From the sequence record PZ171035.1: 64,000 nucleotides of DNA; one strand, 5' to 3'. Of this stretch, positions 24,840 to 39,714 are shown piece by piece. How positions within the stretch are numbered: the first letter of the stretch is position 1; every line of letters begins with the position of its first letter. This DNA comes from a phage. Made by a program: the position numbers and the translations under genes. The notes beneath the pieces were generated by a model. The model saw only the letters and a list, made by a program, of their open reading frames with translations, was not told where the DNA came from and did not search any database.

Positions 24840-25292
24840 ATGCAAATCATTTTGAACCAGTCCGAAGTAGAAGCTGCTGTACAGGCTTATGTTGATGATC
24901 AAATCAATCTTGCTGGTGACATTAATATTGTCATCAATGCAGATGGTACTGCCTCCGTTGGTATCAACGAAGAGGTGAGTCATGAAGATGACACTCCACC
25001 CTTGGTAGAGAAGAAAACTCGTCGTTCCCGTAAAAACCCTCAAGAAGCTAAGCATCGTCCGGTAGAACCGGAGCCAGAAGAAGTAGTTGAAGAGGCAAAG
25101 GTAGAAGAAACCCAGACCTCTACTGGTGGTCCGAACGGGAATTCTACGCCGGAACCTGAAGAAGCAGTAGCTGAACCAGAAGCACAAGAAGAAGTTGTGC
25201 AGGAAGAGGATATGAAAGAAGACCGTGAGCTTCCTCCGGAAGAACGACCGGTAACGAAGCCTTCACTGTTCGCTGGCCTTAAACGTAGTTAA
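24840..25292 (+). CDS. acidic hypothetical protein
   Basis: 150 aa, Glu-rich C-terminal half. Confidence 0.45.
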   Translation: MQIILNQSEVEAAVQAYVDDQINLAGDINIVINADGTASVGINEEVSHEDDTPPLVEKKTRRSRKNPQEAKHRPVEPEPEEVVEEAKVEETQTSTGGPNGNSTPEPEEAVAEPEAQEEVVQEEDMKEDRELPPEERPVTKPSLFAGLKRS

Positions 25293-25300
25293 TCTGGTAG

Positions 25301-25462
25301 GTGGCTCAGAAGCTGCTGCTATTTGTGGTAGTGTTCGTAATTCTGATGCTATTGCTTATCAGGATTCTGGACGTGTCGGCTCCATACATAGCATTTATCA
25401 TCACTGTGCTTATACTTTGGAAACTCAGTGATAAAAACGGTGGTGACAAGCCGCCAGAGTAA
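25301..25462 (+). CDS. candidate small hydrophobic membrane peptide (below ORF-track length cut-off)
   Basis: GTG 25301 (or ATG 25346) to TAA 25460-25462; predicted ...LLLFVVVFVILMLLLIRILDVSAPYIAFIITVLILWKLSDKNGGDKPPE; followed 12 nt later by a 14-bp perfect hairpin. Confidence 0.3.
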   Translation: MAQKLLLFVVVFVILMLLLIRILDVSAPYIAFIITVLILWKLSDKNGGDKPPE

Positions 25463-25473
25463 CAACAACAACC

Positions 25474-25513
25474 GAACCAGTGGACTTTATTACTCCCCGA
25501 AGTCCACTGGTTC
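25474..25513 (+). repeat. 14-bp perfect inverted repeat (hairpin), 12-nt loop
   Basis: GAACCAGTGGACTT-TATTACTCCCCG-AAGTCCACTGGTTC. Confidence 0.8.
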
Positions 25514-26557
25514 AATCTAAACTAAGCGGAAAAGTTAGCTTTTTCTTGGGTGTAGAACCTGTTGAAGGAAACAAAGAATTTCACATTGAATAGTTAATAT
25601 CGTGAAGGGTTCTGTTAGAATCCTTTGAGATAGGAACTCCTATCATAACTATTCTTAACTTAATCATTGCCGTATGGCACTGACGCTAGGGGTGGCCCCC
25701 CCATCCGTCAGGTAGACTATTTTAAGAATGGATTATCACAGCAAATGTAAAGCAACATTCGGGTTAATCAATGGCCTCTCCCTATAGGGGCCATTTCTGA
25801 ATCTTAGGCTATATCCCAAAGGTTAGTATCTTTGGGATAAGGCTTCAGATCCCTTATCAACTAACGCTCGTGTTGAGCATTTTAATCACATAAGCCCCTA
25901 TATGGGCTGGGTTAAATGTCGGATAGCAAAGCTACCTACAGCATCGAATTGTTAGGTCTTACATGTAATATAGGGTATAAAGGGAGGACTCGTCCCCTCC
26001 CTCCTATTATGACATCCTATCAATGAGTACATTAAGCTAACGTGCGGAGGTTTACACTGTAGCCGGTGTAGGTGGAGAAGACGGCAGGGTAGCTACCTGT
26101 GCTTAGTGTACTCTTTGATAGTTTTCGTAAGCGATTATGCGGTTTTTTAGAAACGAACCAATAACATAAATGCAAACGATGATGTTGTTCTGATGGCGGC
26201 GTAATAGCCTGTAAGTCAGCAAGGTCTTCCGACTCCTTGTAAGCAAATTCGGCGCAGTGGCCCGCTGTGATTAATAATGGGCACACAACAGGTAAGAGCA
26301 TTTAGGCTACTGAGAAATCATCCGAGGCAATCAGACCTATCTTCTGTTAAGTGCTCTTTCCGTTGTGGTGAATGCGCAGGCTGATGCGCAGTGGGACGTG
26401 GCTGACTCACGAGGATGGCTCAAGCGAATAAGCAAGCTCGACGCCGCCGAATAAGCGCCTTATGCCGGAGATCAGCACCGGCCACCACAACAAGTCCAGA
26501 CGATATCTGAGTGACTATAAAAACAGATGGAGCCAGGTGGAATCCCTGGCAACTAAT

Positions 26558-26623
26558 TCCGGTGTAGGTACTAGTGTCGTGCACGGCATGAGCATTCTGG
26601 TTCGAGTCCAGACGCCGGAACCA
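26558..26623 (+). ncRNA. tRNA-like element (T-arm plus acceptor minihelix with encoded CCA)
   Basis: Acceptor TCCGGTG/CGCCGGA, T-arm TCTGG-TTCGAGT-CCAGA, discriminator A, CCA; only 63 nt before CCA and no canonical D/anticodon arms found. Confidence 0.3.
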
Positions 26624-26625
26624 AT

Positions 26626-26749
26626 TACCAGTTGCACGAGATGGCTTGACATGTTCAAGTTTGGACTAAGTGTGACACCGCTAGATTGGAGGGCTGCTGC
26701 GGTAAGCTATAGACTCCAACCGGAGGTTCGAATCCTTCACTGGTAACCA
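26626..26749 (+). ncRNA. tRNA-like element with ~48-nt extra internal sequence
   Basis: Perfect 7-bp acceptor TACCAGT/ACTGGTA, T-arm GGAGG-TTCGAAT-CCTTC, discriminator A, CCA; 121 nt between acceptor strands. Confidence 0.3.
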
Positions 26750-27332
26750 ATTCAAAGTAGCACTCGTTTATACTTCCCGGTATTCAAAGACACATTCTTG
26801 TGTGAGTGTTACTCTGAATTGTAAGAATTATGGGGGTAAGTCGTAAATACGACAGCGTAAGTACCAGATGAAACCTCTGGACGCCCCTACCATATTTGAG
26901 ATGTAACAGTTAAATCCGTACCCGGAAGTGCTATTCTAGATACGCTGCCAATGTGGAGACGGTAAGGCTGTACAGGACTCGGACTCCCACCTCAAACCAA
27001 AGTCGCCAGATACTTATGGCAAACGGGTAGTAACGAACTAGTCATTCGTCAAACGCCCACCCTATTATGAGTCAGCAAGAACGCCTTCACTTAAACTTAA
27101 ACAAAAAAGCTTAACGCAATAATTATGTAGGGGTATGTAAGGATTGCGAAGAAGGAGCCAGTTAAAGTCTGGCATGACTCACCTAATTGAGGCTGTACTT
27201 ATGTTCTACAGTAGGTGCACAACACTGGGCTGCTACACCCAGAGGTACAGCCTCACCCTATTATGGGTAGCCTATACTAGTTATAGGGCAGATAATCTGT
27301 GGCAGTGTAAGGCTGCACTACCCTTTCATTAA

Positions 27333-27408
27333 TACCCGGTAGGCTTAGTGGTAAAGCCCCACTAGTAAACCAACTAGGACGCAGGTTCGAATCCTGTCCG
27401 GGTAGCCA
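27333..27408 (+). tRNA. tRNA (anticodon not resolved)
   Basis: Acceptor TACCCGG/CCGGGTA, D-arm GGCT-TAGTGGTAA-AGCC, T-arm GCAGG-TTCGAAT-CCTGT, discriminator G plus CCA; anticodon arm pairs only with a shifted, non-canonical register. Confidence 0.55.
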
Positions 27409-27413
27409 TTTAT

Positions 27414-27498
27414 GCCCACTTAGCTCAGTGGTAGAGCGCAGGAAAGCTTCGAGAGAACAAGGTGTCTGTGGTCACTGGTTCAAATCCAGTAGTGGGTA
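27414..27498 (+). tRNA. tRNA, 85 nt, probably long-variable-arm type (anticodon not resolved)
   Basis: Acceptor GCCCACT/AGTGGGT, D-arm GCTC-AGTGGTA-GAGC, T-arm ACTGG-TTCAAAT-CCAGT; no CCA encoded; no canonical anticodon stem found by eye. Confidence 0.5.
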
Positions 27499-27813
27499 CT
27501 TATTTGCTGCAATATTCCCATAGGGAATGGTGTCGTATACGCCACCTAGTTTCTGGTGAAACTCCAGATGCAGCAATCCATTCAGCAGTAACATAGTCCT
27601 GATTGCATTGCACTCTAAAGACAACACTGGTAAGACAGTCCAGTGGCTGCTATTGTATTGATATTCCCCTCGACGGGAATTTCGCTAGTGAAGGTAACAC
27701 TTAAAAATCCAAACCCACGTCTTACTGCTATCGGGCTATCAACCCACAGTCGCTTAACACACTAGTGGTAGTAGTTTGACGACCTAGCCTCGTTAGCTGC
27801 GTTAAAGCTACTA

Positions 27814-27850
27814 AGTCCCCTAGAGCCGCCCCTCTAGGGGACTTTTTTAT
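27814..27850 (+). terminator. rho-independent terminator (12-bp perfect stem)
   Basis: AGTCCCCTAGAG-CCGCCC-CTCTAGGGGACT followed by T6. Confidence 0.75.
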
Positions 27851-27877
27851 TTGAGTATTAATAACCGGATAATCAAT

Positions 27878-28036
27878 ATGATTGACCTAATCTCAACCCC
27901 GTATGCCTATGAGGTAACGGACAACCGAGGGCATAAGTACTTGGTATTTGTAGGTAGCGTAGCCTATAACAACGCAGTCATGTTTAAGTACAAACTCAAA
28001 CCACTCTATGAGGCTAATAATGGCAACAGTAAGTAA
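27878..28036 (+). CDS. hypothetical small protein
   Basis: ATG 27878; ORF-track start at 27851 is TTG inside the terminator tail. Confidence 0.35.
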   Translation: MIDLISTPYAYEVTDNRGHKYLVFVGSVAYNNAVMFKYKLKPLYEANNGNSK

Positions 28037-28400
28037 AGAAGCAATCGAAGCTAAGATTAAGAGCGTCTACTATTTCAATGGATCGGATGCAGTGAAGTCT
28101 GCATTCGTTGACCCATCTGCACTTCCAGCAGATGATTTGGCTAACCTGGGTCTGACAACCCATTGTGTAATCATTCTGGAAAACAACTTTAAAGTTGAAG
28201 GTGTATCTGCTTGCGTAGACCCAACTATCTATGATGAACAGAAGGGTCGTCAATATGCATATGAAAATGCATTCAATAAGATTTGGGAATTAGAGGGTTA
28301 CCTACTACGTCAGGCACTGCACGAGAAAGAAGAGACCGCTAAAGCTCTGGCTTCCTTTGCAGAAAACAATACCTGTGATGGTGGTGGTTGTACAATCTGA
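28020..28400 (+). CDS. hypothetical protein
   Basis: ATG 28020 with GAGG RBS (ORF-track 28008 also possible); 126 aa. Confidence 0.45.
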   Translation: MATVSKEAIEAKIKSVYYFNGSDAVKSAFVDPSALPADDLANLGLTTHCVIILENNFKVEGVSACVDPTIYDEQKGRQYAYENAFNKIWELEGYLLRQALHEKEETAKALASFAENNTCDGGGCTI

Positions 28401-28482
28401 TCCAAAGGTGTAAGGTAGTTTTTACCGAAAGGTACTGAACTACCCGACAAAGTAGTAAGGCTCTAGAAGCCGAAACAAAACA

Positions 28483-28510
28483 AGCCCTCCTAGCGAGGGC
28501 TTTATCATTT
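28483..28510 (+). terminator. rho-independent terminator
   Basis: AGCCCTC-CTAGC-GAGGGCT followed by TTATCATTT. Confidence 0.55.
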
Positions 28511-28519
28511 GAGGTAGTT

Positions 28520-29008
28520 ATGTCAGAAGAAATTAAAGTCCATTTCACCAACTACATTGGAACCAAGTGTGTAAATGGTTTCCGAATGAACAAAGAAACA
28601 TACTGCAAACTTCGTGGCTGGGATGTACCAGCAAATGAAGACCCGCTAGAAGTAGGTTACTTAGTCGAGTACCCAGACTCTAAGTCCAACCAACCTCAAT
28701 TCCGTGGCTATATTAGCTGGTCACCTAAAGCTGCATTTGAAGCTGCATATCGTGACGTAGAAAAGGGTTGTACCTTTGGTCATGCAGTAGAACTTATGAA
28801 AACAGGCTTCAGAATGACCCGTAAAGGTTGGAACGGAAAAGGAATGTATATCACCTTAGTATCCGGTGAAAATTGGGCCATGGATAAACATGAAAATACC
28901 GTTTGTGAGAAACGGGATTGGCTAGGCATTAAAACCGTTGATAACCAGTTTATGCCTTGGGTTCCATCCCAATCGGATGTATTAGCCGAAGACTGGGTAA
29001 TTCTATAG
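28520..29008 (+). CDS. DUF2829-like protein, possible Tad2-type anti-Thoeris sponge with N-terminal extension
   Basis: C-terminal half carries RKGWNGKGMYITLV and PWVPSQSDVLAEDWVI, which match my recollection of DUF2829/Tad2 hallmarks; not verified by search. Confidence 0.35.
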   Translation: MSEEIKVHFTNYIGTKCVNGFRMNKETYCKLRGWDVPANEDPLEVGYLVEYPDSKSNQPQFRGYISWSPKAAFEAAYRDVEKGCTFGHAVELMKTGFRMTRKGWNGKGMYITLVSGENWAMDKHENTVCEKRDWLGIKTVDNQFMPWVPSQSDVLAEDWVIL

Positions 29009-29016
29009 GAAACTAT

Positions 29017-29310
29017 ATGGAACTCTTTAAGAAGGGTCAGCTTATATCAAAGCGTATTGGTGGTTTATATGTTCATCGTAAAGCCAGACACCGTTTAACC
29101 TTTGGTTGTGATGTACAAATTGATGGTAACAATTGGATTGCTGTGCCAGATACTGGAAATTCAATGGTTCATTGTAAGAAGTTAGGTATTCGCAGAAACA
29201 ACGGTACTTACCAAAAGGTACATGCTGATTTTGTAGATATTTACTTTAATGCCAACAAGATTGATTATGTAATCAAAACTGACCGAAAAGCTCTTGTAGT
29301 TAAGAAATAA
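29017..29310 (+). CDS. hypothetical protein
   Basis: ATG 29017 with AGGAAA RBS preferred over ORF-track 28957; last + strand gene before the convergent late operon. Confidence 0.4.
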   Translation: MELFKKGQLISKRIGGLYVHRKARHRLTFGCDVQIDGNNWIAVPDTGNSMVHCKKLGIRRNNGTYQKVHADFVDIYFNANKIDYVIKTDRKALVVKK

Positions 29311-29315
29311 AATAG

Positions 29316-29345
29316 AAGCCCCTCATTAGAGGGGCTTTTTCATTT
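29316..29345. terminator. bidirectional rho-independent terminator between convergent operons
   Basis: AAGCCCCTC-ATTA-GAGGGGCTT with T-rich tracts on both strands; sits between + strand stop (29310) and vRNAP stop (29344). Confidence 0.7.
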
Positions 29346-32300
29346 AGTTAGTAAGATTGAGCCACGGGTTCAGGGTATGAGCACGTAAGCCTTGACCGAA
29401 ACCGAAGGAGTAACCAAGATTGCCCTGTGCAGCAATACTAAAGATGTTGTCCTGAATAGGCAGGCCAACGTTACCAAACATGGTAGGGGTTGGGGCCAAC
29501 ATAGCCATAGCAGCATGAACTGGGTTATTACGAATCATGGACACTGCAACTTTTGCAGAACGAATCTTAAAGTTGTAGAACCACATCAGACCAACGCTTT
29601 CCATATACCCACGGAAACGACCAGGCAGACGGTCATAGTTAATGAACTCTTCCGTTACACGTCCCAGTGCTTCTTCGCGAGTCTTACCTTTACGCTGAGT
29701 TAGTTCATCATAGATGATTGCTTTAGCAATAAAGTCAGAGTACTCAACCGTCTTCTGGATACTCTGGAACAAAGCAGTATCCTTAGTGATAAGTGCATAA
29801 CGACCTGCGTTACGTACAGACTTAGGCAGCTTATCGGCTAGCTTATCCATATATTCGTGAAGTTTACCTTCAGTAATCAGAATGTCATCACGCCCAATAC
29901 CAGCATCTGCAATTGAAGAGAACTCACCAGCTTCCAATAGAGGCCAGATACTCAAACGCTTATGGCTATCCGTAATGGACTGAATCTCAGCCTTAAGTTT
30001 ACGAATCTGGTTCGGGTTAGTAGCTGCACGTAATTCTGCTTCTGCATCTACCTGACGCAGGCGAGATTTCAGGTACTGGTTAATCTCAGCAGTCTTCTGT
30101 GGAATGCTCTTAGCAATGTTCTTAACCGGTACACCACGAGCAACCATCTGGTAAAGGTTAGCCAGGAAGTTAACAGCAGGTACAACTACTGACTTAACCA
30201 CAATCAGAGTCTTAGCTTCTTTAACTAAGTTTTGAACCAGGTTCTCTCCACCCATTACATATTTATAAGCACGGTTACCGAAGACACCCAACATAGCTTT
30301 CTTGAAGGTATCCAGTGTTTCTGGGGACCAACGAGAATTACCAGACCAGGCATCACCAACGGAAGCTGCACGATAACCTAAGGCATCATTAAGCATGTCA
30401 CGACGTACCCACAACTCACCTGGACCAAACAGACTTTCTGCTTTCTGACGAGTTTCACTATTCATCAGCTTAAGTGCATCGGCAGTTACTGGGTCCAGTT
30501 TAGAACCAAGAAGGTTAACGTACTGGGACTTATTAGAAGCAGACATCTTAATGTCGTTCTCATACATGCTATGCAGGTTCTCAATTAGCATATCGTTGAA
30601 ACGCTGAGCCTTAGCCTCTTCTACCTGACGACCACGCCATACACCGATTGCACGAGCAAGATGGTTCTCACCTTCAATGTGCTTCAGCATGTTAGGGTCA
30701 ATAGATTGCTCGTAAGCAACTACATTACCATTAGCATCATATACAGGCAGCAGAGGTTCATTACCACGTTCACCACGAGCAAGTGCTTTAGTGATACGGT
30801 CTACAGAAGGCTTGTCAGTGATACGACCCGCTACCATGGTTCCCATCGTAAAGCCTGTACCAAGGTCTACACCACCAGCAGTATTTCGAACGTTCTGTAA
30901 GATACCCTGTGAGAATGGGGCCTGTGCCTGTACTGGTGCGAAGTAGTAGCTACGTGCTGGACCACGGTTAGCAGAGCTACCTTGATAAGTACCCAGACGT
31001 ACATAGGACTTCTCAATCAAATCACCAAACTGGCTATCTTCAGCAACAATCAGATTAACACCCTGTTTAGTCTCACTAGGGATATGCCCTTTGTACTGGT
31101 TCAGGGTTGCACGCATATCAGATTTGGCTTTAGCCATTTCATCTTTACGCTGACCAACCAGGTAAGAGGTGGCAAAGTCCATCCCATCAACTTCTGTCTG
31201 AGCCAGTGAAGATAACATCTCACGGTCGGACTTGTTCATTGCTTCCAGTGCATACAGGGTAATCAGTTTATCCAGTTGAGCTACATCTACAGTAGAGCGT
31301 GCAGCCTGACGTTCACCCAGCATACGGGAGATTGCAGTAGCATTACGCAGCAGGTTTTTACCGACAGTACCATTAATCATGTACTGAGCCAGTTGCTTAG
31401 ATTTACGGTTAATCAGAGGCCAGTTACGACCAGCTTGTTTCTGCAAATCTGCTTCCAGCTTATTCACTTCACGGTCAACAATCTTCTGGTCAGTCAGTAA
31501 GTCACGGATTTCAGCCAGTGACATAGTGTCACGCAGGACAGCTAAATCTGTTTTACCCATACCAGTATGCATTACTTTCCACTCATCATTAGTCAGCTTA
31601 CGGCTGAACTTAGATGCGATAGTAGTAGGCAGATGTTCACGGAACTGCTGACGGTCTGCCTGCACCTGTGCACGTACTGCTTTAATCAAATCGTATACAG
31701 AAGCATTGCTCTTAGTACGACCGGTTAAGTCATTAACCAGGTCATGGAAAGGTTGCCATACCTTACCCTGGTTCATTGCAGCCATAACACCTTCAGCTAC
31801 GATTGCACCATTCTTCTCTGTAGCAATAGCAGCTACCAGTTGTGCAGCATGAGCAGCACCTTTAACCAATGGATTATTGGTATTGGCTGCAACTTCACGA
31901 GCACCTTCCAAAGCACGGGTAGATAGTACATCAATAGAATCCACCAGATACTGGTTAGCACGGTCAATAGCATTACCAGTAGGAGTAGCAACGGAATCAT
32001 AGAAGGATTCTGCATTAAGACTGGTCTGCATAATCGTCTGAGCCAGTGCATCCATACCTTCCTGTACGTTAGTAGCTTTAGTATCACCTGCTACACGAGC
32101 ATTCAGACTAGCCATTGCAGCAGTACCAATGTTAGTCAGCATTGCATCAACGGTATTACCTGATTTCTTATCTGCTTTCATGACAGGAATGTCAGCCAGT
32201 ACTTTACGTACTTCTTCACTTACCATTGCCAGACCAACAAAGGTAGGCAGTAAAGAAGATCGACCTTGTGCATCAAACTCAATGTTGTTAGCACCCATGA

Positions 32301-35300
32301 TGGTATCGAACTTCTGCTGTGCATAATAACGATCAGCAGGGTTAGTACTATCTGGGTCAGCCATAAATGCTTCGACGGTCAGATTCTTAGTAACATGCGT
32401 GTAGTATTCCTGTGCACGAGCCATAGCAGCAGGGTTAACAGCAGCCTCGGTAGCCAGTGCAGCAACAATATTGGTAAAGAGACGCTGTTCCTGCATATTC
32501 ATGGTGAAGCCATGAGCCTGAACATCACGAGTTACTTTAGTTGCATTTACTACTGCATCAGAGAACTTACCTTTGCGAATTACTTGCTGTACTGGTTCTG
32601 AACCAATGTAGTTAGTAATTAGCTTATCAAAGGTTTTCCCTAGCTCTTCCAGACGAGTATTTTCACCATACGCTTTGTTATGGAACAGAGTAGTATCTTT
32701 GGCTACAGCAGCAGTAGGAGCTTGCCCACGCATTACTACAGCAGAGTTAAACAGTAAGCCAGAGAACATATCTTCTGCATTAGCAGGAGCTTTCTTACGT
32801 CCAAATACCAGACGTTTGATTGCTTCATATACAGCCTGAACCATAGTTTTAAGTGCAGTGGTTTTCTTCTGCTTACTAATCAGTTCTCGGTTGGTTAAAC
32901 CCCAAGCCATGTACTCGTTCAGTGCAGCAGCTTTAGCCATTGCTGGTTCAATAAAGCCATTGGATAGGTGACCATTAATGGTATTCAGTGCATCAGCATA
33001 TGCTTCTCGTACTGCCGGAGATTCATCCCTAACATCCAGAGCACGGAACTGATTCATCAGGTCTTCGATGTTCTGGACTGCTTCATTAGGAGTGCCTTCA
33101 TAGTGAGCCAGTACAGATTCAAAAGTAGAAGCATGTACCAATTCATGAACCAGAGTCTCTAAGGAAGGGGTAACTAAGTAGATGGTTTTATCTTCAAAGT
33201 TAGTCCAGCCGTATGCATTACCAGCTTCAGCAGCTTCAATATCTTCCGGTGCTGGGCGAGTAATGTTCTTCTCAATAGCATAGGCATCCAATTGAGCAGG
33301 TGTACCGTAAACAACTTTATAGTCTTTAGCAGCAAGGGATTTCTGTATTTCTTTCAATACTTCTTGCTGTTCAGGAGACATCTCTTTAGCCAGTTTAGTA
33401 ATGGCAGTGTTAGACAGCAGACGTACACCAGACTTCAGTACACGACCAACCTGTTCCATCGCCGGTACTTCTTCCACTGGTTCTGCTTTAGTAGCACGTA
33501 CTGCTTCACGACGCTTATTTAATTCAGCATCAAACAGTTCGTTCAGCTTAGCTACTTGCTGGTCTACAGTAAGACCTTCCAGAGAGATTTTACCGTTGTT
33601 CACATAAGGAGCACCTACGGCAGCCATCTGGTCAACAGTGACTTGTACCTGGTCCATTACCTTGTGACGAATATCTACACCCAGAGCAATGTTACGCAGG
33701 TTACGTTCAATCTGCTCAGCACCGACACGTAACAGGTCATCAGTAGCACCCTCACGTTGGTCATACTCCAGAGCAGACTTAGCGATAGCCTGTTTGGTTT
33801 CATCAGACAGTTTACTGAAGTCTACGTTCTTCATGAACTTAGCGTAGGAGTCATAAACATTCTTGATAGGGTTACCCTGCCAGGAAGTATATACAGCCTC
33901 ATTAGCTTTGCGACTTGCATCAGTGATGTCATTGATACCAATGTTCATACCATCAAAGATTTTCAGGGTATTCTTCGGAGCACCTTTCATAGTAGAAAGT
34001 GTCTGCATCATCATGCCATCACCAGTACCGATGGTCATAAATGGAATACCTGCAACACCTGCCTGTGAAGGAGCATAAATGCTCATTGGCACACGCATAC
34101 GGTCATCTAAGTTAGTAGCCAGTACTTGGTTAGCAACATCAGTATTCTCACTACCAGCAATGTAGAAAGTCTGTGAACCAGTCTCAATCATTGGAGCCAG
34201 TGAAGATAATGATTCCTGGATTTCATTCAGTTCTTTCTGCGTTAAGAAATCACCTTTCTTCCAGGTTGGGTCTTTTTCTTTTTCTGCCAGCTTAGCCTGT
34301 ACTGCTTGCTGGAACATATCCTGCAATACCAGAGATTGAATCTGGGTAGCCTTCTGCAAGTTCTCGGTAGAGTGCATCAGACCTTCACCAACAGTATTAC
34401 GGATACCAGTACGCATTGGTTCAACGAACAGGTGGAGCATGTTCTCTTGTAAGTTCTTCAGGGCATTACCGGATACGGTAAATTTCTGGGGGTCTAACTT
34501 ACCAGTCAGAGCACCATCTACTTGCTGAATAGACAACTCACCTTTACGCATAACTGGAACATTACCAGTCAGTGCTTCCATAGAAGTAAGGAAAGTATCC
34601 AACATAGCCTGAGCATCAGCTTCAGACGCAGCCTCCTTACCAAACATTGCCATAGCTGGGGAAATGCTAGGGTCAGCAGCTCGTGCTTGCAGAACGTCAC
34701 TGAAGCGTTCGTAGATGGTATCAGTAATTGCACTGACCATCTTGCCAGCAATACCACGAGCACCAGAACCATAGATGGTAATGGTCAGTGGGTTTTTAGC
34801 AATACCACGTTTCAGGTCCAGAGTACCGTCTTCATTCAGGTTAAAGTCTTTAATGAACAAGTCCATTAACTTCTGGAGATGATTCATCTGGCTCATAACT
34901 GGAACGTTGTTACGGTAAGTAGTACGTAACTCATTCAGTGCTTGTTGAAGACCATTGGTAGATGCTTCATACAAGTCAACATTATCGTCGATAGAACAAT
35001 GTTCGTTCATCGTTTTACCAGCACGACCAAAGAACAAACCACCTTTGGCAGTGTTCTTAATCCAGTCTGGAGTGAACTTACCACCAGTCATTAATACCAT
35101 TGCGTTGATTGGGCCGTTGGTTACACCATCAGCTTCAACGTACAGTGGAGTAGTAAAATTAGCACGGTCATCACTGTTCAGGTAACGGGCATATTCCATC
35201 AGAGCCATGAGAGCTACGAAGGATTTATCACTACCCAGAGAGGTCTTCAGGATGTCTACTGCATCTGTCGGTAAGTGACCAGACTTATCAAACTCAACCA

Positions 35301-38300
35301 TCATATCAACAGCAGGTTTCAGTTTACCTTCCAGAGCTTTAGTTAACTCTTCAGACATAACTTCACGGGACATTTTATGTACCTTGATGCCTAATGCCTG
35401 AGCCAGACCTAACTGGAAGTCAGAGAACGCTTGGCTGTTTTCATTACTCAAGTCGATAGTAGAGAAGGTTGGTAGGATTGCTTCACGAACCAGCTTACTG
35501 GATTGTGGGTTGTTCTTACCAAGCATCTGCATACGACCTACACGGGTCATGTTATAACCGTAGTGGATAGGTGTATCCAGACCATTCTCTTGTTCTCGTA
35601 TCTGATTAATTACACCGAACAGAGAATCATATGCCATAGACACGGACAGGTTTTTACCTTCCAAAGATTTAGCAGTGTTCGCGTTCAGTAATTCTGGATT
35701 AAGAGTACCAGCACCCATCAGTTCCAGAATGTTGTCACGCCCCAATGCTTCATAGAAGTTAACCATTGGCATATGTACACGGAACTCGGTAGCCTGTTCA
35801 GCTTTCAGTGCAGCTTTCTGTTCAGGGGTATTCTTAACAGCAGGGTTACGCAACTGAGTCTGAGCCACAGAAGGAATGTCATCACCAAAGTACATTTTCT
35901 CTTCTGGTTCTAAGAGGACAGCTTCCTCAATAGCAGTAGGGAATTTATTAATGGCATCATTGTCATCCAACTTCTCAATGGTATACAGACCAACAGTCTT
36001 ATTGGAGTCTGGGTCAATCTCAGACACATCCAACATAGACTCTTTAACTTCACCCATCTCAATGAGAGAAGACAGAATCTCTGTAGCCATTGCCATTGGG
36101 ATACCTTTGGTATAACCCAGCGGTGCATTAGGATTACGATTCAAACCCCAGTAGGATTCAATCTTCTGAGCCAGTGAGTTAGTAGCTTCAACCAGGGTCT
36201 GGGCATTCTCGAACTCAGCCAGAATACCTTCTGGTAACAGAGATGCTTCTACGCCTGTAATAGCAGCTACGTCTTTCATATCTTTAATGGCAGCATTCTG
36301 TGTAGTAGTCAGTCGCCATTGCAAACCAGCAAGCACAGCAGTCTCTAACAACTGGTCGTTGAACTTAAAGGTATCCCCATCTTGTTCAACTATATTCAGC
36401 AGTTTGCCACCTACCCAACGGTTAGCTTCAGTACCTTCTGCAAAACGTTTACCAACGTTCTTATTAGCAAGGAACTTAGCCAGACGTTCAGACAAAGTAG
36501 TCTTCAGAGTTTCACCAAAGTCCATTAAGTCCTGATAACGCTTAATCACATCACTAGTGAGAGCGTTATTTTCTTTTTGAGTGAATGCCTCAAAGCGAGC
36601 AGCAGAAGACAGTGCTTGCTTAATATCAGTCAAAGGAGATTCTGAACCAATGGTACGGGACTTAGGTTCTTCCGGTAAGGTAAATGCTTTCAGGAACTGG
36701 TTCGGTGTCTTTTCATTGTTATAGACAGGGAACACTGTTTCCATTTCTGTTTTGGTTTCAGCTACTTCCTGGATGGTATCCTCATTCTTGAGAATAGCAT
36801 CTACTGTTTCAGGCTTAGTAGTAGAGACTTCTTCTGTTTTTGGACTAGTCTCCTTAGTAGGAGCAGTCTTATTTTCTACCACAGGTTTAGCTTTAGGCTG
36901 TACAGTAGTAGTGTCCTCTTGCACTGGTGCAGGAGATTCATCAACCTGATTCACTGGTTCATTAGTCTGTTGAGACTGAGTGGCATCAAGACCACCTTGA
37001 CGGAACTCTTTAACTACCTGGGCAGCAGGCTTGTTCAGACGTGAATCCAACGAGGTAACTTTCACATGAGAAACATTAAGCTCCGGGTAAGCCGTAGCAA
37101 GTGCATTAGCAATATCAGCTACGGTTTTGGCTTCCAGTCCTACTTGCTGGGCAAACTTAACAGACTTGGTATCGTAAGGATTGACACCGAGGCCAGTACG
37201 ACTACGTACCCATTCACGGGAAGGCGAGAGAGCCTGATAATGAACAGACTTATTCTTATCCGCATTCCCCGAAATCAGATGCTCATTCAACGCTCCGACC
37301 TTATTCTGCATGTGCTGGGCGAACTTCATAAAGTCGCTCAGATAAGCGGAGGCCAAATCGAAGTTACCAGAGTTATACGCAGAACGAATGCGTTTCGCAT
37401 GTTGCAACGCAGAGTACTGTCCTTCATTAGAACGAGACTCGTCGGTTTTAATCTGTTTACTAACAATGTCTTGAGGACGTAAGCCTAGTTCTTCTGCTTT
37501 AGCGTCGAACTCACGTGCACCCTGTAACAAGGCAGCAGCAGATTGCAGGGCAGCACGTTGACGATTACCCAATGTAATCTTACCTTCACTTGCATGTTTC
37601 AGAACCATGTTCACTGAATCCGCATCCAGTACTTCTGGAGATACATCAGCAGCCATAGCAATATTGTTTGCTTGGGCTTGGTTAGCTTCTTCAGTAGCTT
37701 TCAGCTTACCTGCTTCAGCCTGTTCCTGAATCATGGAATGGATAGCACGGAATGCACGAAGTACTTTCGGGGTATTCTGTACGTTAGCCATCAGGCCGGA
37801 GAATTGGTCTACGATTGCAGCAGCAGGAGAACCCTGTTCAAGATTAGCCAGAGCACCTGGGTCACGGTTAATGAAGCTATCCATAGACATGATGTTGTCA
37901 TACATCTGGATTGCAGCTTCCATTTGAACGTTAGGGTCTTCGGCAGTATTAACCAGGTCAGCCATCTTCTGAATAGCTTCAACACGGTTAGTGGAACCAG
38001 AAACAGCTTCACGGATTGCCGGGTTAGCTTGTTCCAATTCTACCGGGTCAAACTTCATTGCCTGAGTTAAGTCAGCAGCATACTGGGTAGCAGCAGCTTT
38101 CTCTTCTGGAGTGATGTCCATTGCATCCACTGCTTCTTGTACAGTTGCCTGTGCTTGTTCTGCCTGAGCAGCAGCTTCCTGTGCAGCAGCATTAACCGTA
38201 GCATCAGCTACAGGGGATGCTTGTTCATTACGCTTAGCAACTTCTTCACCACGTTGAATCAGGATGTTAGTAAGAGGGGATGCAGCTTTTGCTAATGTTT

Positions 38301-39714
38301 TGCCAACCAGAGAAGCACCAGCCATGGTAGTACGAAGAGCAGGGCCAGCAGAAGCACCAACTGCTTTAACAGTTGTACCAGGAGCTTGAGCAACCCCAGC
38401 ACTACCGAATCCATAAAGTGCACCCAGACCTGCTTGCTCACCAACCCCTTTGAGGGTGTCACGGGATGCATCAACGTTTTCTTTGATTGCAGTATTCTGT
38501 GCGAACTGACCAAAGCCGGATTGAATACCTTCTTCGACTGTTTCACGTAGCATATTAGAACCAGCACCTGCCAGTGAACCTACCTTAAGTGGGTTAAGTT
38601 CAAAGCGAGATACCAGTGGACCGGTAGCAGCAGCAACTGGAGCAGTTAAGCCAGCAGCAATGATACCTGTTTCAGATGCAGTCTGACGACGTGCTTCATC
38701 AGGAGATAAACCATCAGCAATATGTTGTTGGTAAACAGGAGACTTACTTGCCAATTCTTGATGGGACATCTTCATGATTTCAGAAGCAGTCTGTTGGTAT
38801 GCACCACCAGCTTCCATACCACCGATTGCAATAGCAGGTGCAGCAACACGACCGGCAGACAATGCAACCTGTGCAGGACGTGAACCTAACCCAGCAGCTA
38901 AGGTAATACCCTTAACAGCTTTATCACCACCTACCATTACTTTACCAAGTGCAGATACACCACGAATAAGAGGACCACCAGTAAAGAGAGAACCAACACC
39001 TTCACTCAGTCCGTCAGAGGCAGCCATACCATTATCAAGTGTGTTAGCAACAGAATCGAAAGCGTCACGACCAATACGAGACAGGGAGGCAACCAAATCG
39101 CTGTCCCCATTTTTGATATCTTGTTCATAAAGTTTCTGGTTCTTTTGAGCAGAAATCTGGTTCTGATTCTGAACAACTTTACGGGTAGCATTCAGTGCAT
39201 CAGACTGTAGATTGTGTACACCTTCATTCAACCAATCCATCCCGGAAGCAATGGATGCCCCGGCATTATCATTGACCAGACCTGTGCCAAGAGCAGCAAT
39301 GCCCCCAAGGGTATTAGCAACACCAAGACCAACACCAGAAAGAGTATCGCCAAATGCTTCTGCGTTAGTACGCTGTTTAGATAAGTCCTGACGTACAACA
39401 TCAGCAGCATTAGCTCGGCTATTAATAATCTGTAGACCTTGTTCATTACCGTACTTATTAATGATTTCTAAAGGGGAGGCTTGAGTGAAATCTGCCTGAA
39501 GTGAACCTGGTTCGAATGCACCGATTCCAAGATTACCTACTCGTCCGGTCTGGAGATTGTAAGCATTCTCTGGGGTTAATTGGAAAGGGCTTTGCCCTTG
39601 TGCAGCTTGCTTCTGAGAGGTTGCAGTAGAGACATCGACTTGCTTAGCATTAGTGATGCTGTCTGCGAAACCTGCCAGACGGTCAAATGTTGACATAGCA
39701 TGTTTCCTGTTCAA
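29344..39714 (-). CDS. virion-encapsidated giant RNA polymerase (N4 vRNAP-like)
   Basis: Single 3456-aa ORF at the distal end of the late operon; size and position are the hallmark of N4-like phages (N4 vRNAP is ~3500 aa). Confidence 0.8.
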   Translation of the reverse strand: MNRKHAMSTFDRLAGFADSITNAKQVDVSTATSQKQAAQGQSPFQLTPENAYNLQTGRVGNLGIGAFEPGSLQADFTQASPLEIINKYGNEQGLQIINSRANAADVVRQDLSKQRTNAEAFGDTLSGVGLGVANTLGGIAALGTGLVNDNAGASIASGMDWLNEGVHNLQSDALNATRKVVQNQNQISAQKNQKLYEQDIKNGDSDLVASLSRIGRDAFDSVANTLDNGMAASDGLSEGVGSLFTGGPLIRGVSALGKVMVGGDKAVKGITLAAGLGSRPAQVALSAGRVAAPAIAIGGMEAGGAYQQTASEIMKMSHQELASKSPVYQQHIADGLSPDEARRQTASETGIIAAGLTAPVAAATGPLVSRFELNPLKVGSLAGAGSNMLRETVEEGIQSGFGQFAQNTAIKENVDASRDTLKGVGEQAGLGALYGFGSAGVAQAPGTTVKAVGASAGPALRTTMAGASLVGKTLAKAASPLTNILIQRGEEVAKRNEQASPVADATVNAAAQEAAAQAEQAQATVQEAVDAMDITPEEKAAATQYAADLTQAMKFDPVELEQANPAIREAVSGSTNRVEAIQKMADLVNTAEDPNVQMEAAIQMYDNIMSMDSFINRDPGALANLEQGSPAAAIVDQFSGLMANVQNTPKVLRAFRAIHSMIQEQAEAGKLKATEEANQAQANNIAMAADVSPEVLDADSVNMVLKHASEGKITLGNRQRAALQSAAALLQGAREFDAKAEELGLRPQDIVSKQIKTDESRSNEGQYSALQHAKRIRSAYNSGNFDLASAYLSDFMKFAQHMQNKVGALNEHLISGNADKNKSVHYQALSPSREWVRSRTGLGVNPYDTKSVKFAQQVGLEAKTVADIANALATAYPELNVSHVKVTSLDSRLNKPAAQVVKEFRQGGLDATQSQQTNEPVNQVDESPAPVQEDTTTVQPKAKPVVENKTAPTKETSPKTEEVSTTKPETVDAILKNEDTIQEVAETKTEMETVFPVYNNEKTPNQFLKAFTLPEEPKSRTIGSESPLTDIKQALSSAARFEAFTQKENNALTSDVIKRYQDLMDFGETLKTTLSERLAKFLANKNVGKRFAEGTEANRWVGGKLLNIVEQDGDTFKFNDQLLETAVLAGLQWRLTTTQNAAIKDMKDVAAITGVEASLLPEGILAEFENAQTLVEATNSLAQKIESYWGLNRNPNAPLGYTKGIPMAMATEILSSLIEMGEVKESMLDVSEIDPDSNKTVGLYTIEKLDDNDAINKFPTAIEEAVLLEPEEKMYFGDDIPSVAQTQLRNPAVKNTPEQKAALKAEQATEFRVHMPMVNFYEALGRDNILELMGAGTLNPELLNANTAKSLEGKNLSVSMAYDSLFGVINQIREQENGLDTPIHYGYNMTRVGRMQMLGKNNPQSSKLVREAILPTFSTIDLSNENSQAFSDFQLGLAQALGIKVHKMSREVMSEELTKALEGKLKPAVDMMVEFDKSGHLPTDAVDILKTSLGSDKSFVALMALMEYARYLNSDDRANFTTPLYVEADGVTNGPINAMVLMTGGKFTPDWIKNTAKGGLFFGRAGKTMNEHCSIDDNVDLYEASTNGLQQALNELRTTYRNNVPVMSQMNHLQKLMDLFIKDFNLNEDGTLDLKRGIAKNPLTITIYGSGARGIAGKMVSAITDTIYERFSDVLQARAADPSISPAMAMFGKEAASEADAQAMLDTFLTSMEALTGNVPVMRKGELSIQQVDGALTGKLDPQKFTVSGNALKNLQENMLHLFVEPMRTGIRNTVGEGLMHSTENLQKATQIQSLVLQDMFQQAVQAKLAEKEKDPTWKKGDFLTQKELNEIQESLSSLAPMIETGSQTFYIAGSENTDVANQVLATNLDDRMRVPMSIYAPSQAGVAGIPFMTIGTGDGMMMQTLSTMKGAPKNTLKIFDGMNIGINDITDASRKANEAVYTSWQGNPIKNVYDSYAKFMKNVDFSKLSDETKQAIAKSALEYDQREGATDDLLRVGAEQIERNLRNIALGVDIRHKVMDQVQVTVDQMAAVGAPYVNNGKISLEGLTVDQQVAKLNELFDAELNKRREAVRATKAEPVEEVPAMEQVGRVLKSGVRLLSNTAITKLAKEMSPEQQEVLKEIQKSLAAKDYKVVYGTPAQLDAYAIEKNITRPAPEDIEAAEAGNAYGWTNFEDKTIYLVTPSLETLVHELVHASTFESVLAHYEGTPNEAVQNIEDLMNQFRALDVRDESPAVREAYADALNTINGHLSNGFIEPAMAKAAALNEYMAWGLTNRELISKQKKTTALKTMVQAVYEAIKRLVFGRKKAPANAEDMFSGLLFNSAVVMRGQAPTAAVAKDTTLFHNKAYGENTRLEELGKTFDKLITNYIGSEPVQQVIRKGKFSDAVVNATKVTRDVQAHGFTMNMQEQRLFTNIVAALATEAAVNPAAMARAQEYYTHVTKNLTVEAFMADPDSTNPADRYYAQQKFDTIMGANNIEFDAQGRSSLLPTFVGLAMVSEEVRKVLADIPVMKADKKSGNTVDAMLTNIGTAAMASLNARVAGDTKATNVQEGMDALAQTIMQTSLNAESFYDSVATPTGNAIDRANQYLVDSIDVLSTRALEGAREVAANTNNPLVKGAAHAAQLVAAIATEKNGAIVAEGVMAAMNQGKVWQPFHDLVNDLTGRTKSNASVYDLIKAVRAQVQADRQQFREHLPTTIASKFSRKLTNDEWKVMHTGMGKTDLAVLRDTMSLAEIRDLLTDQKIVDREVNKLEADLQKQAGRNWPLINRKSKQLAQYMINGTVGKNLLRNATAISRMLGERQAARSTVDVAQLDKLITLYALEAMNKSDREMLSSLAQTEVDGMDFATSYLVGQRKDEMAKAKSDMRATLNQYKGHIPSETKQGVNLIVAEDSQFGDLIEKSYVRLGTYQGSSANRGPARSYYFAPVQAQAPFSQGILQNVRNTAGGVDLGTGFTMGTMVAGRITDKPSVDRITKALARGERGNEPLLPVYDANGNVVAYEQSIDPNMLKHIEGENHLARAIGVWRGRQVEEAKAQRFNDMLIENLHSMYENDIKMSASNKSQYVNLLGSKLDPVTADALKLMNSETRQKAESLFGPGELWVRRDMLNDALGYRAASVGDAWSGNSRWSPETLDTFKKAMLGVFGNRAYKYVMGGENLVQNLVKEAKTLIVVKSVVVPAVNFLANLYQMVARGVPVKNIAKSIPQKTAEINQYLKSRLRQVDAEAELRAATNPNQIRKLKAEIQSITDSHKRLSIWPLLEAGEFSSIADAGIGRDDILITEGKLHEYMDKLADKLPKSVRNAGRYALITKDTALFQSIQKTVEYSDFIAKAIIYDELTQRKGKTREEALGRVTEEFINYDRLPGRFRGYMESVGLMWFYNFKIRSAKVAVSMIRNNPVHAAMAMLAPTPTMFGNVGLPIQDNIFSIAAQGNLGYSFGFGQGLRAHTLNPWLNLTN

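What the first reader, a model, noticed from the sequence alone, without database searches (positions are those of the whole stretch)
27878..29310. Small-gene accessory island between the RNA region and the late operon, each gene with its own terminator
Four small genes lie between two strong terminators (27814 and 29316) with an internal terminator at 28483. This position, just before the vRNAP stop, is a typical variable hotspot for anti-defence or host-takeover genes.
Basis: inference. Interest (0 to 1): 0.45.

Follow-up and report, generated by a model that had tools for sequence, protein, structure and literature searches.

The report
Anti-immune-signal sponge island before vRNAP
This 1.4-kb stretch of an N4-like E. 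coli phage carries two genes for proteins that soak up the bacterial alarm molecules of the CBASS and Thoeris defences, plus two mobile genes of unknown role; the hotspot itself is already described for N4-like phages.

Summary
The four + strand ORFs and three terminator hairpins are real, but they form two two-gene units, not one terminator per gene. The window is a Gamaleyavirus (N4-like, E. coli).

- **g2** (28020-28400) belongs to the Acb4 family (PF13876). It is the positional counterpart of N4 gp48, a tested cyclic-nucleotide sponge.
- **g3** (28520-29008) is the N4 gp49 counterpart. Its C-terminal half is a Tad2 domain that keeps 8 of 10 gcADPR-contact residues of SPO1 Tad2.
- **The g3 N-terminal "X" domain** has no Pfam model. 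It is homologous to the N-terminal, strand-swapping dimerisation domain of the published RyR Tad. At least 101 of 147 sampled X proteins are fused to a known sponge domain.
- **g1 and g4** are small mobile genes shared with unrelated phages; their function is unknown.

Across 31 relatives anchored on the vRNAP C-terminus, this slot shuffles Acb4, X-Tad2, Sequestin and unknown cassettes. Distant relatives have none of the four genes.

A 2026 preprint already describes this anti-signalling hotspot in N4-like phages. I rate it a new member of a known kind. The residual leads are X, g1 and g4.

The parts
27813..27844 (+). Terminator T1 closing the upstream RNA region: 13-bp stem followed by a T-run
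   Evidence: Pattern scan. Folds at -22.8 kcal/mol, z -5.0. Annotated as a terminator at the same place in PhAPEC5. Conserved in relatives.
27878..28036 (+). g1: 52-aa mobile small protein of unknown function (phrog_34266); weak ribosome-binding site; overlaps the start of g2
   Evidence: ORF list. phrog_34266 E 3.3e-21. No Pfam match. Protein-level homologs at 55-80% identity in 190 phage records, mostly unrelated 47-50 kb Klebsiella phages. Present in 10 of 31 related loci, and its 5' part is deleted in ECBP1/L006.
28020..28400 (+). g2: Acb4-family protein (predicted CBASS cyclic-nucleotide sponge), counterpart of N4 gp48. 126 aa from the ATG at 28020 preceded by GAGG; an alternative ATG at 28008 gives 130 aa. 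It has a C-terminal extension ending CDGGGCTI
   Evidence: PF13876 E 8.1e-25, 87.6 bits against a cut-off of 27. A profile of the locus family matches PDB 9e4w Acb4 at E 2.9e-6. The PhAPEC5 record maps it to N4 gp48. N4 gp48 is called Acb4 and is necessary and sufficient to trigger Panoptes (PMC12657230).
28401..28519 (+). Conserved g2-g3 intergenic module: hairpin at 28414-28444, terminator T2 at 28482-28502, then the GAGG ribosome-binding site of g3
   Evidence: Pattern scan. Folding: the 125-nt stretch 28398-28522 gives -37 kcal/mol, z -3.4; T2 alone gives -13.8 kcal/mol, z -2.9. Nearly invariant across Gamaleyavirus loci, even where the flanking genes differ.
28520..28768 (+). g3 N-terminal 'X' domain (aa 1-83): module with no Pfam model, homologous to the N-terminal dimerisation domain of RyR Tad
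28769..29008 (+). g3 C-terminal Tad2 domain (aa 84-162): predicted gcADPR sponge of the short-insertion SPO1 type. The whole of g3 is the counterpart of N4 gp49
   Evidence: PF11195 E 1e-23. PDB Tad2, ModTad2 and SPO1 gp34.65 match at E 1e-17 to 1e-15 over the full domain. 8 of 10 SPO1 gcADPR-contact residues are identical. N4 carries an 88-91% identical copy.
29017..29310 (+). g4: 97-aa basic protein of unknown function (phrog_29107); the most recently acquired and most variable slot
   Evidence: phrog_29107 E 1.7e-43. No Pfam or PDB match. 52 homologs, all at least 74% identical. Present in 10 Gamaleyavirus records, in roughly 40-48 kb Salmonella/E. coli/Shigella phages such as Skate, swi2 and DS8, and at 35-40% identity in Lastavirus and EcP1. 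Lowest GC content of the neighbourhood. AlphaFold2 pLDDT 52, not usable.
29314..29339 (.). Bidirectional terminator T3, shared by the island and the convergent vRNAP (late) gene
   Evidence: Scores on both strands. Folds at -18.6 kcal/mol on + and -19.8 on -, z about -5. The stem is conserved down to N4 (L018), with loop changes.
29344..39714 (-). Virion RNA polymerase gene (3,456 aa): the right-hand boundary of the hotspot
   Evidence: ORF list. Annotated as virion RNA polymerase in relatives.

Best explanation
The locus is this Gamaleyavirus's copy of the 'anti-signalling' gene-acquisition hotspot that N4-like phages carry just upstream of the convergent vRNAP gene.

Shown here:
- g2 is an Acb4-family protein and the positional counterpart of N4 gp48.
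- g3 is a two-domain protein and the counterpart of N4 gp49. Its C-terminal Tad2 domain keeps the gcADPR pocket. Its N-terminal X domain is homologous to the strand-swapping dimerisation domain of RyR Tad.
- The slot turns over between relatives by cassette and by domain.

Inferred from published work on family members:
- g2 forms a tetramer that sequesters CBASS cyclic dinucleotides such as 3'3'-cGAMP and cAA, so the CBASS effector is never switched on.
- The Tad2 domain of g3 forms a tetramer that sequesters 1''-3'/1''-2' gcADPR made by Thoeris ThsB, so ThsA stays inactive.
- Its short beta2-beta5 insertion suggests gcADPR only, without a second cyclic-dinucleotide site.
- X most likely pairs protomers, cross-linking or stabilising the assembly.

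The genes are read rightward, as the tail of the replication-gene block, in two terminator-bounded units (g1-g2 and g3-g4). Reading this as N4 middle-class transcription rests on my own knowledge of N4, not on a test here.

g1 and g4 are mobile small genes found in moron clusters of unrelated phages. They are anti-defence candidates by association only.
For: - **Taxon and synteny:**
- **Acb4:** Pfam at 87.6 bits; profile match to PDB 9e4w at E 2.9e-6. PF13876 is the Acb4 family, and all eight tested homologs bound 3'3'-cGAMP. N4 gp48 is Acb4 and triggers Panoptes.
- **Tad2:** Pfam at 84.1 bits; end-to-end alignment to solved Tad2 structures. The SPO1 contact residues W25, N26, I63, T65, D67, W73, S76 and D79 are identical in g3 (W104, N105, I137, T139, D141, W147, S150, D153); T78 becomes S and H71 becomes M.
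- **Second site:** cyclic-dinucleotide binding in Tad2 depends on a long insertion that SPO1-type proteins lack.
- **X domain:** hhalign probability 97.2% to CB1 gp68 N-terminus. The gp68 crystal structure is described as a domain-swapped dimer, and the N-domain alone showed no anti-Thoeris-I activity. Among 147 representatives, 41 are fused to Tad2, 39 to Sequestin, 15 to Acb4 and 6 to Acb2/Tad1.
- **Turnover:**. Sequestin (PF21825, E about 1e-18) occupies the g4 slot in 8 relatives.
- **Mosaicism:** N4's g3 copy is 88-91% identical, while g2 is 46% and the vRNAP C-terminus 79%. In L005 and L013 the X domain is 91-95% identical but the Tad2 domain only 65%.
- **Published hotspot:**
Against: - No binding or infection experiment exists for these exact proteins.
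- Only 1 of 10 SPO1 Acb4 pocket residues (F48, equivalent to g2 F57) is conserved in a low-identity alignment, so g2's ligand range cannot be read from the sequence.
- g1 and g4 have no functional evidence at all. The g4 model is unusable (pLDDT 52), and g1 has a weak ribosome-binding site and too few substitutions to test for coding selection.
- The timing and promoter of expression were not established. No promoter-like motif is enriched after the terminators.
- The oligomeric states are inferred, not modelled.
Confidence: 0.8

Rival explanations
1. The X domain of g3 is not just a dimerisation scaffold. It is itself a signal-binding or otherwise inhibitory anti-defence domain, aimed at a molecule or system not yet tested, which would make g3 a dual inhibitor.
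For: - X is an autonomous module. It is N-terminal in 154 of 186 sampled proteins, C-terminal in 11 and stand-alone in 10.
- A stand-alone X gene sits next to vRNAP in Erwinia-type locus L030.
- Its polar and aromatic motifs (GYLVEY, SWSPK, K16, N57, Y64) are invariant across sequences that are otherwise only 43-64% identical to the window's X domain.
- At least 101 of 147 partners are known sponge domains, and the same guilt-by-fusion logic led to Sequestin. That search covered only Pfam families, and X has no Pfam model.
Against: - The homologous gp68 N-domain showed no activity against type I Thoeris, and in the crystal structure it mediates strand-swapped dimerisation.
- No ligand or pocket is shown.
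Confidence: 0.25
2. g2 and g3 are anti-CRISPR proteins, as some GenBank records annotate them (Mimir124, 24-32N).
For: - The 'anti-CRISPR protein' labels appear.
- DUF2829 was first linked to AcrIIA7, and PDB 9kzr AcrIIA7 matches g3 residues 81-114 at E 1.8e-9.
Against: - Only about 30 residues align to AcrIIA7/HgmTad2, whereas the full domain aligns to SPO1-type Tad2.
- Cas9 inhibition by HgmTad2/AcrIIA7 could not be reproduced, and the family binds gcADPR.
- From my own knowledge, E. coli lacks type II CRISPR-Cas.
- No anti-CRISPR evidence for PF13876 turned up in the papers read.
Confidence: 0.04
3. The four genes are conserved housekeeping accessories of the replication/recombination module rather than an accessory island.
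For: They lie downstream of, and in the same orientation as, the replication genes: an AAA_24 protein and an N4 gp46-like protein that relatives annotate as a RuvC-like resolvase. g2 and g3 homologs are present in N4 itself.
Against: - Presence and absence vary widely, alleles are replaced, and all four genes are absent in 9 distant N4-like loci.
- g1 and g4 are shared with unrelated phage types.
- The family assignments point to immune-signal sponges.
Confidence: 0.03
4. g1 and/or g4 are not anti-defence genes. They would be unrelated morons, for example small nucleic-acid-binding regulators, superinfection-exclusion factors or selfish cargo, that happen to ride in a recombination-prone slot.
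For: - No family, structural or contextual link to any defence pathway.
- In other phages they sit in generic clusters of small hypothetical genes near head or terminase genes.
- g4 is very basic in its conserved N-terminal half.
Against: Their neighbours at this slot in relatives are validated sponges (Sequestin, Tad2, Acb4). The published screen of this hotspot also yielded new inhibitors.
Confidence: 0.45

Closest known systems
Anti-signalling gene-acquisition hotspot of N4-like phages (Fedorova et al. 2026, bioRxiv 10.64898/2026.06.04.730250)
   Same: The same genomic interval, bounded on the right by the virion RNA polymerase. The same kind of content (Tad2, Acb4 and Sequestin in relatives), the same variability between relatives, and an N4 gp46-like gene (annotated RuvC-like in relatives) upstream at 24284-24838.
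   Different: - That work centres on Pseudomonas Migulavirinae (Ab09 Acb4-Sequestin fusion, Bes1, Bes2) and Pectobacterium CB1 RyR Tad.
- Here Acb4 and Tad2 are separate genes, and Tad2 is fused to X.
- A block of about 2 kb of tRNA and non-coding RNA separates the island from the gp46-like gene.
- g1 and g4 do not appear in the parts of that paper I read.
Acb4 (SPO1 Acb4, PDB 9e4w; N4 gp48)
   Same: PF13876 membership; a profile match to the solved structure; the same position as N4 gp48.
   Different: - Only 46% identical to N4 gp48, and only a profile-level match to SPO1 Acb4.
- The SPO1 pocket residues are largely not conserved.
- It carries a C-terminal extension of about 30 aa ending C-x-G-G-G-C-x-I, which SPO1 Acb4 lacks.
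Tad2 (SPO1 gp34.65, PDB 8sme/8smg; ModTad2, 9eib)
   Same: Full-length domain alignment; 8 of 10 gcADPR contacts identical, including both tryptophans and N26/D79; short beta2-beta5 insertion.
   Different: Tad2 is a single-domain protein of 89 aa. g3 adds an 83-aa N-terminal X domain. H71 becomes M and T78 becomes S.
RyR Tad (Pectobacterium phage vB_PatP_CB1 gp68)
   Same: Its N-terminal domain is homologous to X (hhalign probability 97.2%). Both are two-domain proteins made of X plus a sponge domain, and both are encoded in the N4-like hotspot.
   Different: The C-terminal sponge domain is RyR-repeat-like in gp68 and Tad2 in g3. gp68 sits next to the primase, not next to vRNAP.
Sequestin (PF21825; T4 Y16O)
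   Same: It occupies the g4 slot in 8 related loci and is the second most frequent fusion partner of X.
   Different: None of the four window genes is a Sequestin. The X domain gives no PF21825 match even at E <= 10, and its predicted fold is mixed beta/alpha, not all-helical.

Membership tests
Acb4 (PF13876) | Sequence match to the family model above the curated threshold | tested here: met
   g2: 87.6 bits against a cut-off of 27, E 8.1e-25, covering model positions 2-82 of 82.
Acb4 (PF13876) | Homology to the solved founding member (SPO1 Acb4, PDB 9e4w) | tested here: met
   A profile of six locus homologs matches 9e4w_A at E 2.9e-6 over the beta-sheet core. The single sequence alone gives no match.
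Acb4 (PF13876) | Conservation of the 3'3'-cGAMP-contacting residues of SPO1 Acb4 | tested here: inconclusive
   By my mapping of the alignment onto the residues listed, only F48 (g2 F57) is identical and F62 becomes Y. The alignment has low identity, and pocket residues are known to vary with specificity.
Acb4 (PF13876) | Homotetramer that binds cyclic dinucleotides | not testable with these tools
   No multimer modelling or biochemistry was available. This is inferred from SPO1 Acb4, the eight tested homologs and N4 gp48.
Tad2 (PF11195 / DUF2829) | Sequence match to the family model and to solved Tad2 structures | tested here: met
   g3 aa 85-161: 84.1 bits against a cut-off of 25. PDB 8v3e, 9eib and 8sme match at E 3e-17 to 2e-15 over the whole domain.
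Tad2 (PF11195 / DUF2829) | gcADPR-binding pocket residues (SPO1 W25, N26, I63, T65, D67, H71, W73, S76, T78, D79) | tested here: met
   8 of 10 are identical (W104, N105, I137, T139, D141, W147, S150, D153), with T78 to S152 and H71 to M145. Residue list, alignment.
Tad2 (PF11195 / DUF2829) | Long beta2-beta5 insertion that creates the second (cyclic-dinucleotide) site, as in HgmTad2/SptTad2 | tested here: not met
   g3 aligns to HgmTad2, SptTad2 and AcrIIA7 only over the first 30-37 residues of the domain, but end to end with the short-insertion SPO1 type. This is a sub-type feature, not a family-defining one.
Tad2 (PF11195 / DUF2829) | Homotetramer that sequesters gcADPR and inhibits type I Thoeris | not testable with these tools
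AcrIIA7-type anti-CRISPR | Full-length similarity to AcrIIA7 and inhibition of Cas9 | tested here: not met
   Only g3 residues 81-114 align to PDB 9kzr. The published Cas9 inhibition was not reproducible.
Sequestin (PF21825) | Match of any island protein, in particular the g3 N-domain, to PF21825 | tested here: not met
   No match at E <= 0.1 for the whole proteins or at E <= 10 for g1, g4 and the g3 N-domain. In contrast, the 67-aa ORFs at the g4 slot in L014, L031 and L002 score E 1e-17 to 5e-19.
X domain = N-terminal domain of RyR Tad (no Pfam model) | Profile-level homology to CB1 gp68 residues 1-86 | tested here: met
   hhalign probability 97.2%, E 3.9e-11, aligning X 8-81 to gp68 3-69.
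X domain = N-terminal domain of RyR Tad (no Pfam model) | Strand-swapped homodimer | not testable with these tools
   Only a monomer model was possible (pLDDT 92.3). The dimer is taken from the description. The structure is not in the PDB copy searched.
N4-like anti-signalling hotspot | Located between the primase/replication genes and the vRNAP gene, with variable content that includes known signal inhibitors | tested here: met
   Position. Turnover across 31 loci. Acb4, Tad2 and Sequestin identified. Definition of the hotspot.
Intrinsic (rho-independent) terminators | GC-rich hairpin followed by a U-tract, more stable than shuffled sequence | tested here: met
   T1 and T3 have z about -5 and clean T-runs. 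T2 is weaker (z -2.9, interrupted U-tract). Whether they terminate the phage RNA polymerase II is not testable here.

The most novel reading that the evidence does not exclude
The X domain (g3 aa 1-83) is itself a new family of immune-signal binders or inhibitors, not merely a dimeriser. It has no Pfam model and about 2,800 cluster representatives at 50% identity, and in most sampled members it is fused to Tad2, Sequestin, Acb4 or Acb2/Tad1 domains. In addition, or alternatively, g4 or g1 is a new anti-defence protein. If so, the Gamaleyavirus island would encode three to five distinct countermeasures in 1.4 kb, and the roughly 30% of X-fusion partners with no Pfam match would be a ready list of further undiscovered sponge domains.
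Probability: 0.25. Interest if true: 0.6.

Novelty: new member of a known kind. Interest (0 to 1): 0.35.

Why it matters
For this phage and other Gamaleyaviruses, some of them studied for use against pathogenic E. coli, the island predicts resistance to CBASS and type I Thoeris. It also predicts sensitivity to guard systems such as Panoptes that detect sponges, which bears on host-range prediction.

The broader value lies in the leads:
- The X domain, widespread and without a Pfam model, marks multi-domain sponge proteins and could serve as a search handle for new sponge domains.
- g1, g4 and the 76-, 82- and 51-aa cassettes seen in relatives are short-listed anti-defence candidates at a validated hotspot.

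The hotspot concept and the Acb4 and Tad2 assignments are already published.

Tried and rejected
1. **X as a divergent Sequestin (PF21825).** Rejected: no match even at E <= 10, and the predicted fold is beta-beta-alpha-beta-beta-alpha, not all-helical.
3. **g2 and the g3 N-domain as paralogs.** BLASTP found nothing.
4. **g4 structure.** AlphaFold2 with 24 homologs gave pLDDT 52, so no fold search was run. Profile searches against the PDB and Pfam found nothing.
5. **Codon-position test for g1.** There are too few independent substitutions, and the pattern [1, 33, 52] is uninterpretable. The coding status of g1 rests instead on distant protein-level homologs.
6. **A shared promoter-like motif after the terminators (TWTYATTTGAG).** Not enriched: 7 matches against 6.35 expected. 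Sigma-70-like sites are not enriched either: 10 against 11.2.
7. **Neighbourhoods of g1 and g4 homologs in unrelated phages.** Only anonymous clusters of small genes, no functional clue.
8. **Clustering of X-fusion partners by BLAST.** Single linkage merged everything through multi-domain proteins, so only the architecture counts were kept.
9. **Upstream genes.** The N4 gp46-like gene and the 150-aa gene after it gave no Pfam match. Their equivalence to Bes1/Bes2 is positional only.
Full report
**What the window is.** The 1.9 kb around the finding matches 68 phage records at 80-95% DNA identity. Almost all are Escherichia or Shigella phages of the genus Gamaleyavirus (Schitoviridae, N4-like). 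A 3,456-aa ORF on the minus strand (29344-39714) is the virion RNA polymerase, vRNAP.

**Check of the observation.**
- Four + strand ORFs fill 27878-29310:
  - g1, 27878-28036, 52 aa.
  - g2, 126 aa from the ATG at 28020, which is preceded by GAGG. The longer ORF starts at 28008.
  - g3, 28520-29008, 162 aa, preceded by GAGG.
  - g4, 29017-29310, 97 aa, preceded by AGGAAA.
- Terminator-like hairpins lie at 27813-27844, 28482-28502 and 29314-29339. The last scores on both strands and is shared with vRNAP.
- The region 25000-32000 holds 16 terminator-like sites against 5.5 +/- 2.3 in shuffles.
- T1 and T3 fold with z about -5. T2 is weaker, with z -2.9 and an interrupted U-tract.
- PhAPEC5's authors annotated terminators at the same three places, and the hairpins are conserved in relatives.
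- The title's "each gene with its own terminator" is wrong. g1 overlaps g2, and g3 and g4 are 8 nt apart. The layout is two bicistronic units.

**g2 is an Acb4-family protein.**
- It matches PF13876 at 87.6 bits against a cut-off of 27.
- Chang et al. identify PF13876 as the Acb4 family. SPO1 Acb4 is a tetrameric sponge for 3'3'-cGAMP, and all eight homologs they tested bound cGAMP. Only those from phages of Gram-negative hosts also bound cAA.
- A profile of six locus homologs matches the solved SPO1 Acb4 (PDB 9e4w) at E 2.9e-6.
- The PhAPEC5 record equates this gene with N4 gp48. Sullivan et al. call N4 gp48 Acb4 and show it is necessary and sufficient to trigger the Panoptes guard system.
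- g2 is 46% identical to the N4 protein.
- The SPO1 pocket residues are mostly not conserved; only F48 is identical (my mapping). Ligand range therefore cannot be inferred from sequence.

**g3 has two domains.**
- Residues 84-162 match Tad2 (PF11195, 84.1 bits). They align end to end with the solved Tad2, ModTad2 and SPO1 gp34.65 structures at E 3e-17 to 2e-15.
- Eight of the ten SPO1 Tad2 residues that contact 1''-3' gcADPR or its waters are identical in g3. T78 becomes S and H71 becomes M.
- g3 aligns with HgmTad2/AcrIIA7 only over the first ~30 residues of the domain. It lacks the long insertion that creates the second, cyclic-dinucleotide site. I therefore predict a gcADPR-only sponge.
- The "anti-CRISPR" labels in some records trace back to AcrIIA7, whose Cas9 inhibition could not be reproduced.

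**The N-terminal X domain of g3 (residues 1-83).**
- It has no Pfam match and no PDB sequence match, whether searched as a single sequence or as a profile.
- Its homologs are X plus Sequestin, X plus Tad2, or X alone. X is usually N-terminal but sometimes C-terminal.
- AlphaFold2 gives a confident model (pLDDT 92.3) with a beta-beta-alpha-beta-beta-alpha layout.
- A profile search of 1.84 billion cluster representatives finds 2,813 members at E <= 0.001.
- Of the top 147 members, 41 carry Tad2, 39 Sequestin, 15 Acb4 and 6 the Acb2/Tad1 hairpin domain.
- tblastn finds X in 123 phage records infecting Escherichia, Vibrio, Klebsiella, Pseudomonas, Clostridium and other hosts.
- X is homologous to the N-terminal domain of RyR Tad, gp68 of Pectobacterium phage CB1 (hhalign probability 97.2%, E 3.9e-11).
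[quoted passage not shown] It was inactive alone against type I Thoeris, and it forms a strand-swapped dimer in their crystal structure.
- The best-supported role for X is therefore dimerisation or assembly. An independent inhibitory role is not excluded.

**g1 and g4.**
- g1 (phrog_34266) has protein-level homologs at 55-80% identity in 190 phage records. Most are unrelated 47-50 kb Klebsiella phages, so it is a real and mobile gene.
- The local alignment of g1 has too few substitutions to test for selection.
- g4 (phrog_29107) has 52 homologs, all at least 74% identical.
- g4 occurs in 10 Gamaleyavirus records, in roughly 40-48 kb Salmonella, E. coli and Shigella phages such as Skate, swi2 and DS8, and more distantly in Lastavirus and EcP1.
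- In the ~47.5-48 kb Salmonella contigs inspected, g4 lies among small genes between the terminase and portal genes.
- g4 sits in the lowest-GC stretch of the neighbourhood.
- Its AlphaFold2 model is unusable (pLDDT 52), and nothing matches in Pfam or the PDB.
- The neighbourhoods of both genes in other phages give no functional clue.

I anchored on the vRNAP C-terminus only. This gave 27 IMG/VR loci, to which I added 4 GenBank loci. I then mapped all ORFs between the RNA region and the vRNAP stop. The counts below are over 31 loci, including the window and excluding the truncated L020.

| Cassette | Loci with it |
|---|---|
| g1 | 10 |
| Acb4 | 19 |
| X-Tad2 | 15 |
| g4 | 3 |
| Sequestin (PF21825, E about 1e-18), at the g4 slot | 8 |
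| 76-aa HTH-like ORF | 7 |
| 82-aa ORF | 5 |

- Other occupants in some loci are a 51-aa DUF7279 ORF, a zinc-ribbon ORF and, in Erwinia-type locus L030, a stand-alone X.
- Nine distant N4-like loci have none of the four genes.
- Alleles are also replaced:
  - Two Acb4 types are only about 41-44% identical.
  - L005 and L013 keep X at 91-95% identity but carry a Tad2 domain that is only 65% identical.
  - N4's g3 is 88-91% identical, although g2 is 46% and the vRNAP C-terminus 79%.
- The 120-nt g2-g3 intergenic module is almost invariant even where the flanking genes differ. It is a plausible recombination junction, but that is inference.

**Comparison with the literature.** Fedorova et al. (bioRxiv, June 2026) define an anti-signalling hotspot in Pseudomonas N4-like phages: Ab09 gp59 (an Acb4-Sequestin fusion), Bes1 (RuvC-like) and Bes2. 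[quoted passage not shown] The present island is this hotspot's Gamaleyavirus version. The N4 gp46-like gene at 24284-24838 (annotated RuvC-like in relatives) and the 150-aa gene after it occupy the Bes1/Bes2 positions. I did not test that equivalence, and Pfam gives no match for either.

**Verdict.** The interpretation as a variable anti-defence hotspot is supported. The most likely mechanism is sequestration of CBASS and Thoeris second messengers by g2 and g3; this is inferred from family membership, conserved Tad2 pocket residues and the tested N4 counterpart of g2. It is a new member of a known kind and of moderate-to-low interest. The residual leads are the X domain, g1 and g4.

Noticed in passing
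window 28309-28400 (g2 C-terminal extension); also L005, L009, L010, L014, L018 (N4), L031; L007 5452-5601 and the equivalent ORF in L008 (coordinates in the reoriented loci): Every Acb4-family protein at this locus ends in a conserved tail, C-[ED]-G-G-G-C-[KT]-I (L010 has a shorter C-E-G-C-K-I), that lies outside the Pfam domain. Two phages carry a 49-aa ORF that keeps only the MRLIM start, an acidic helix and the tail (...CTSGGCTI), with the Acb4 core deleted. The tail may have a function of its own, such as metal binding or a disulphide.
   Followed up: partly
window 28401-28519: The g2-g3 intergenic stretch holds a hairpin (28414-28444) and terminator T2. It is almost invariant across Gamaleyavirus loci, even where the genes on either side differ or an extra gene is inserted. 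It could be a recombination junction or a regulatory RNA element. The 125-nt stretch 28398-28522 folds with z -3.4.
   Followed up: partly
window 25500-27800: An ORF-poor, DNA-conserved 'RNA region'. Rfam finds tRNAs at 27333-27405 and 27414-27498; ARAGORN finds only the first, with an undetermined anticodon. Sub-threshold tmRNA-like matches lie at 26101-26253 (31 bits against a gathering score of 47). Most of the 2 kb is unexplained.
   Followed up: no
window 24284-24838 and 24840-25292: The N4 gp46-like gene (annotated RuvC-like in relatives) and the 150-aa gene after it occupy the positions of Bes1 (RuvC-like) and Bes2, the 'broad evasion of signalling' genes described in Pseudomonas phage Ab09. 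Neither gives a Pfam match here, and homology to Bes1/Bes2 was not tested.
   Followed up: no
L002 3312-3560, L005, L014, L015, L017 (82-aa ORF); L002 4204-4437 and six others (76-aa ORF); L015 4848-5003 (51-aa DUF7279): Further recurrent small cassettes of unknown function alternate with Acb4, Tad2 and Sequestin at the same slot in relatives. They are anti-defence candidates by position.
   Followed up: partly
Pfam PF13876 name versus N4 gene numbering: Pfam calls PF13876 the 'N4 Gp49/Sf6 gene 66' family. By the RefSeq numbering quoted in the PhAPEC5 record and in Sullivan et al., the PF13876 protein of N4 is gp48, and gp49 is the DUF2829 (X-Tad2) protein. This naming mismatch could mislead annotation.
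   Followed up: yes
L026 2090-2338 and L029 2452-2694 (reoriented coordinates): Distant N4-like contigs that lack the island next to vRNAP still encode a Tad2-like domain (36-39% identity) elsewhere, upstream of the N4 gp46-like (RuvC-like) gene. The function may be kept while the position moves.
   Followed up: no
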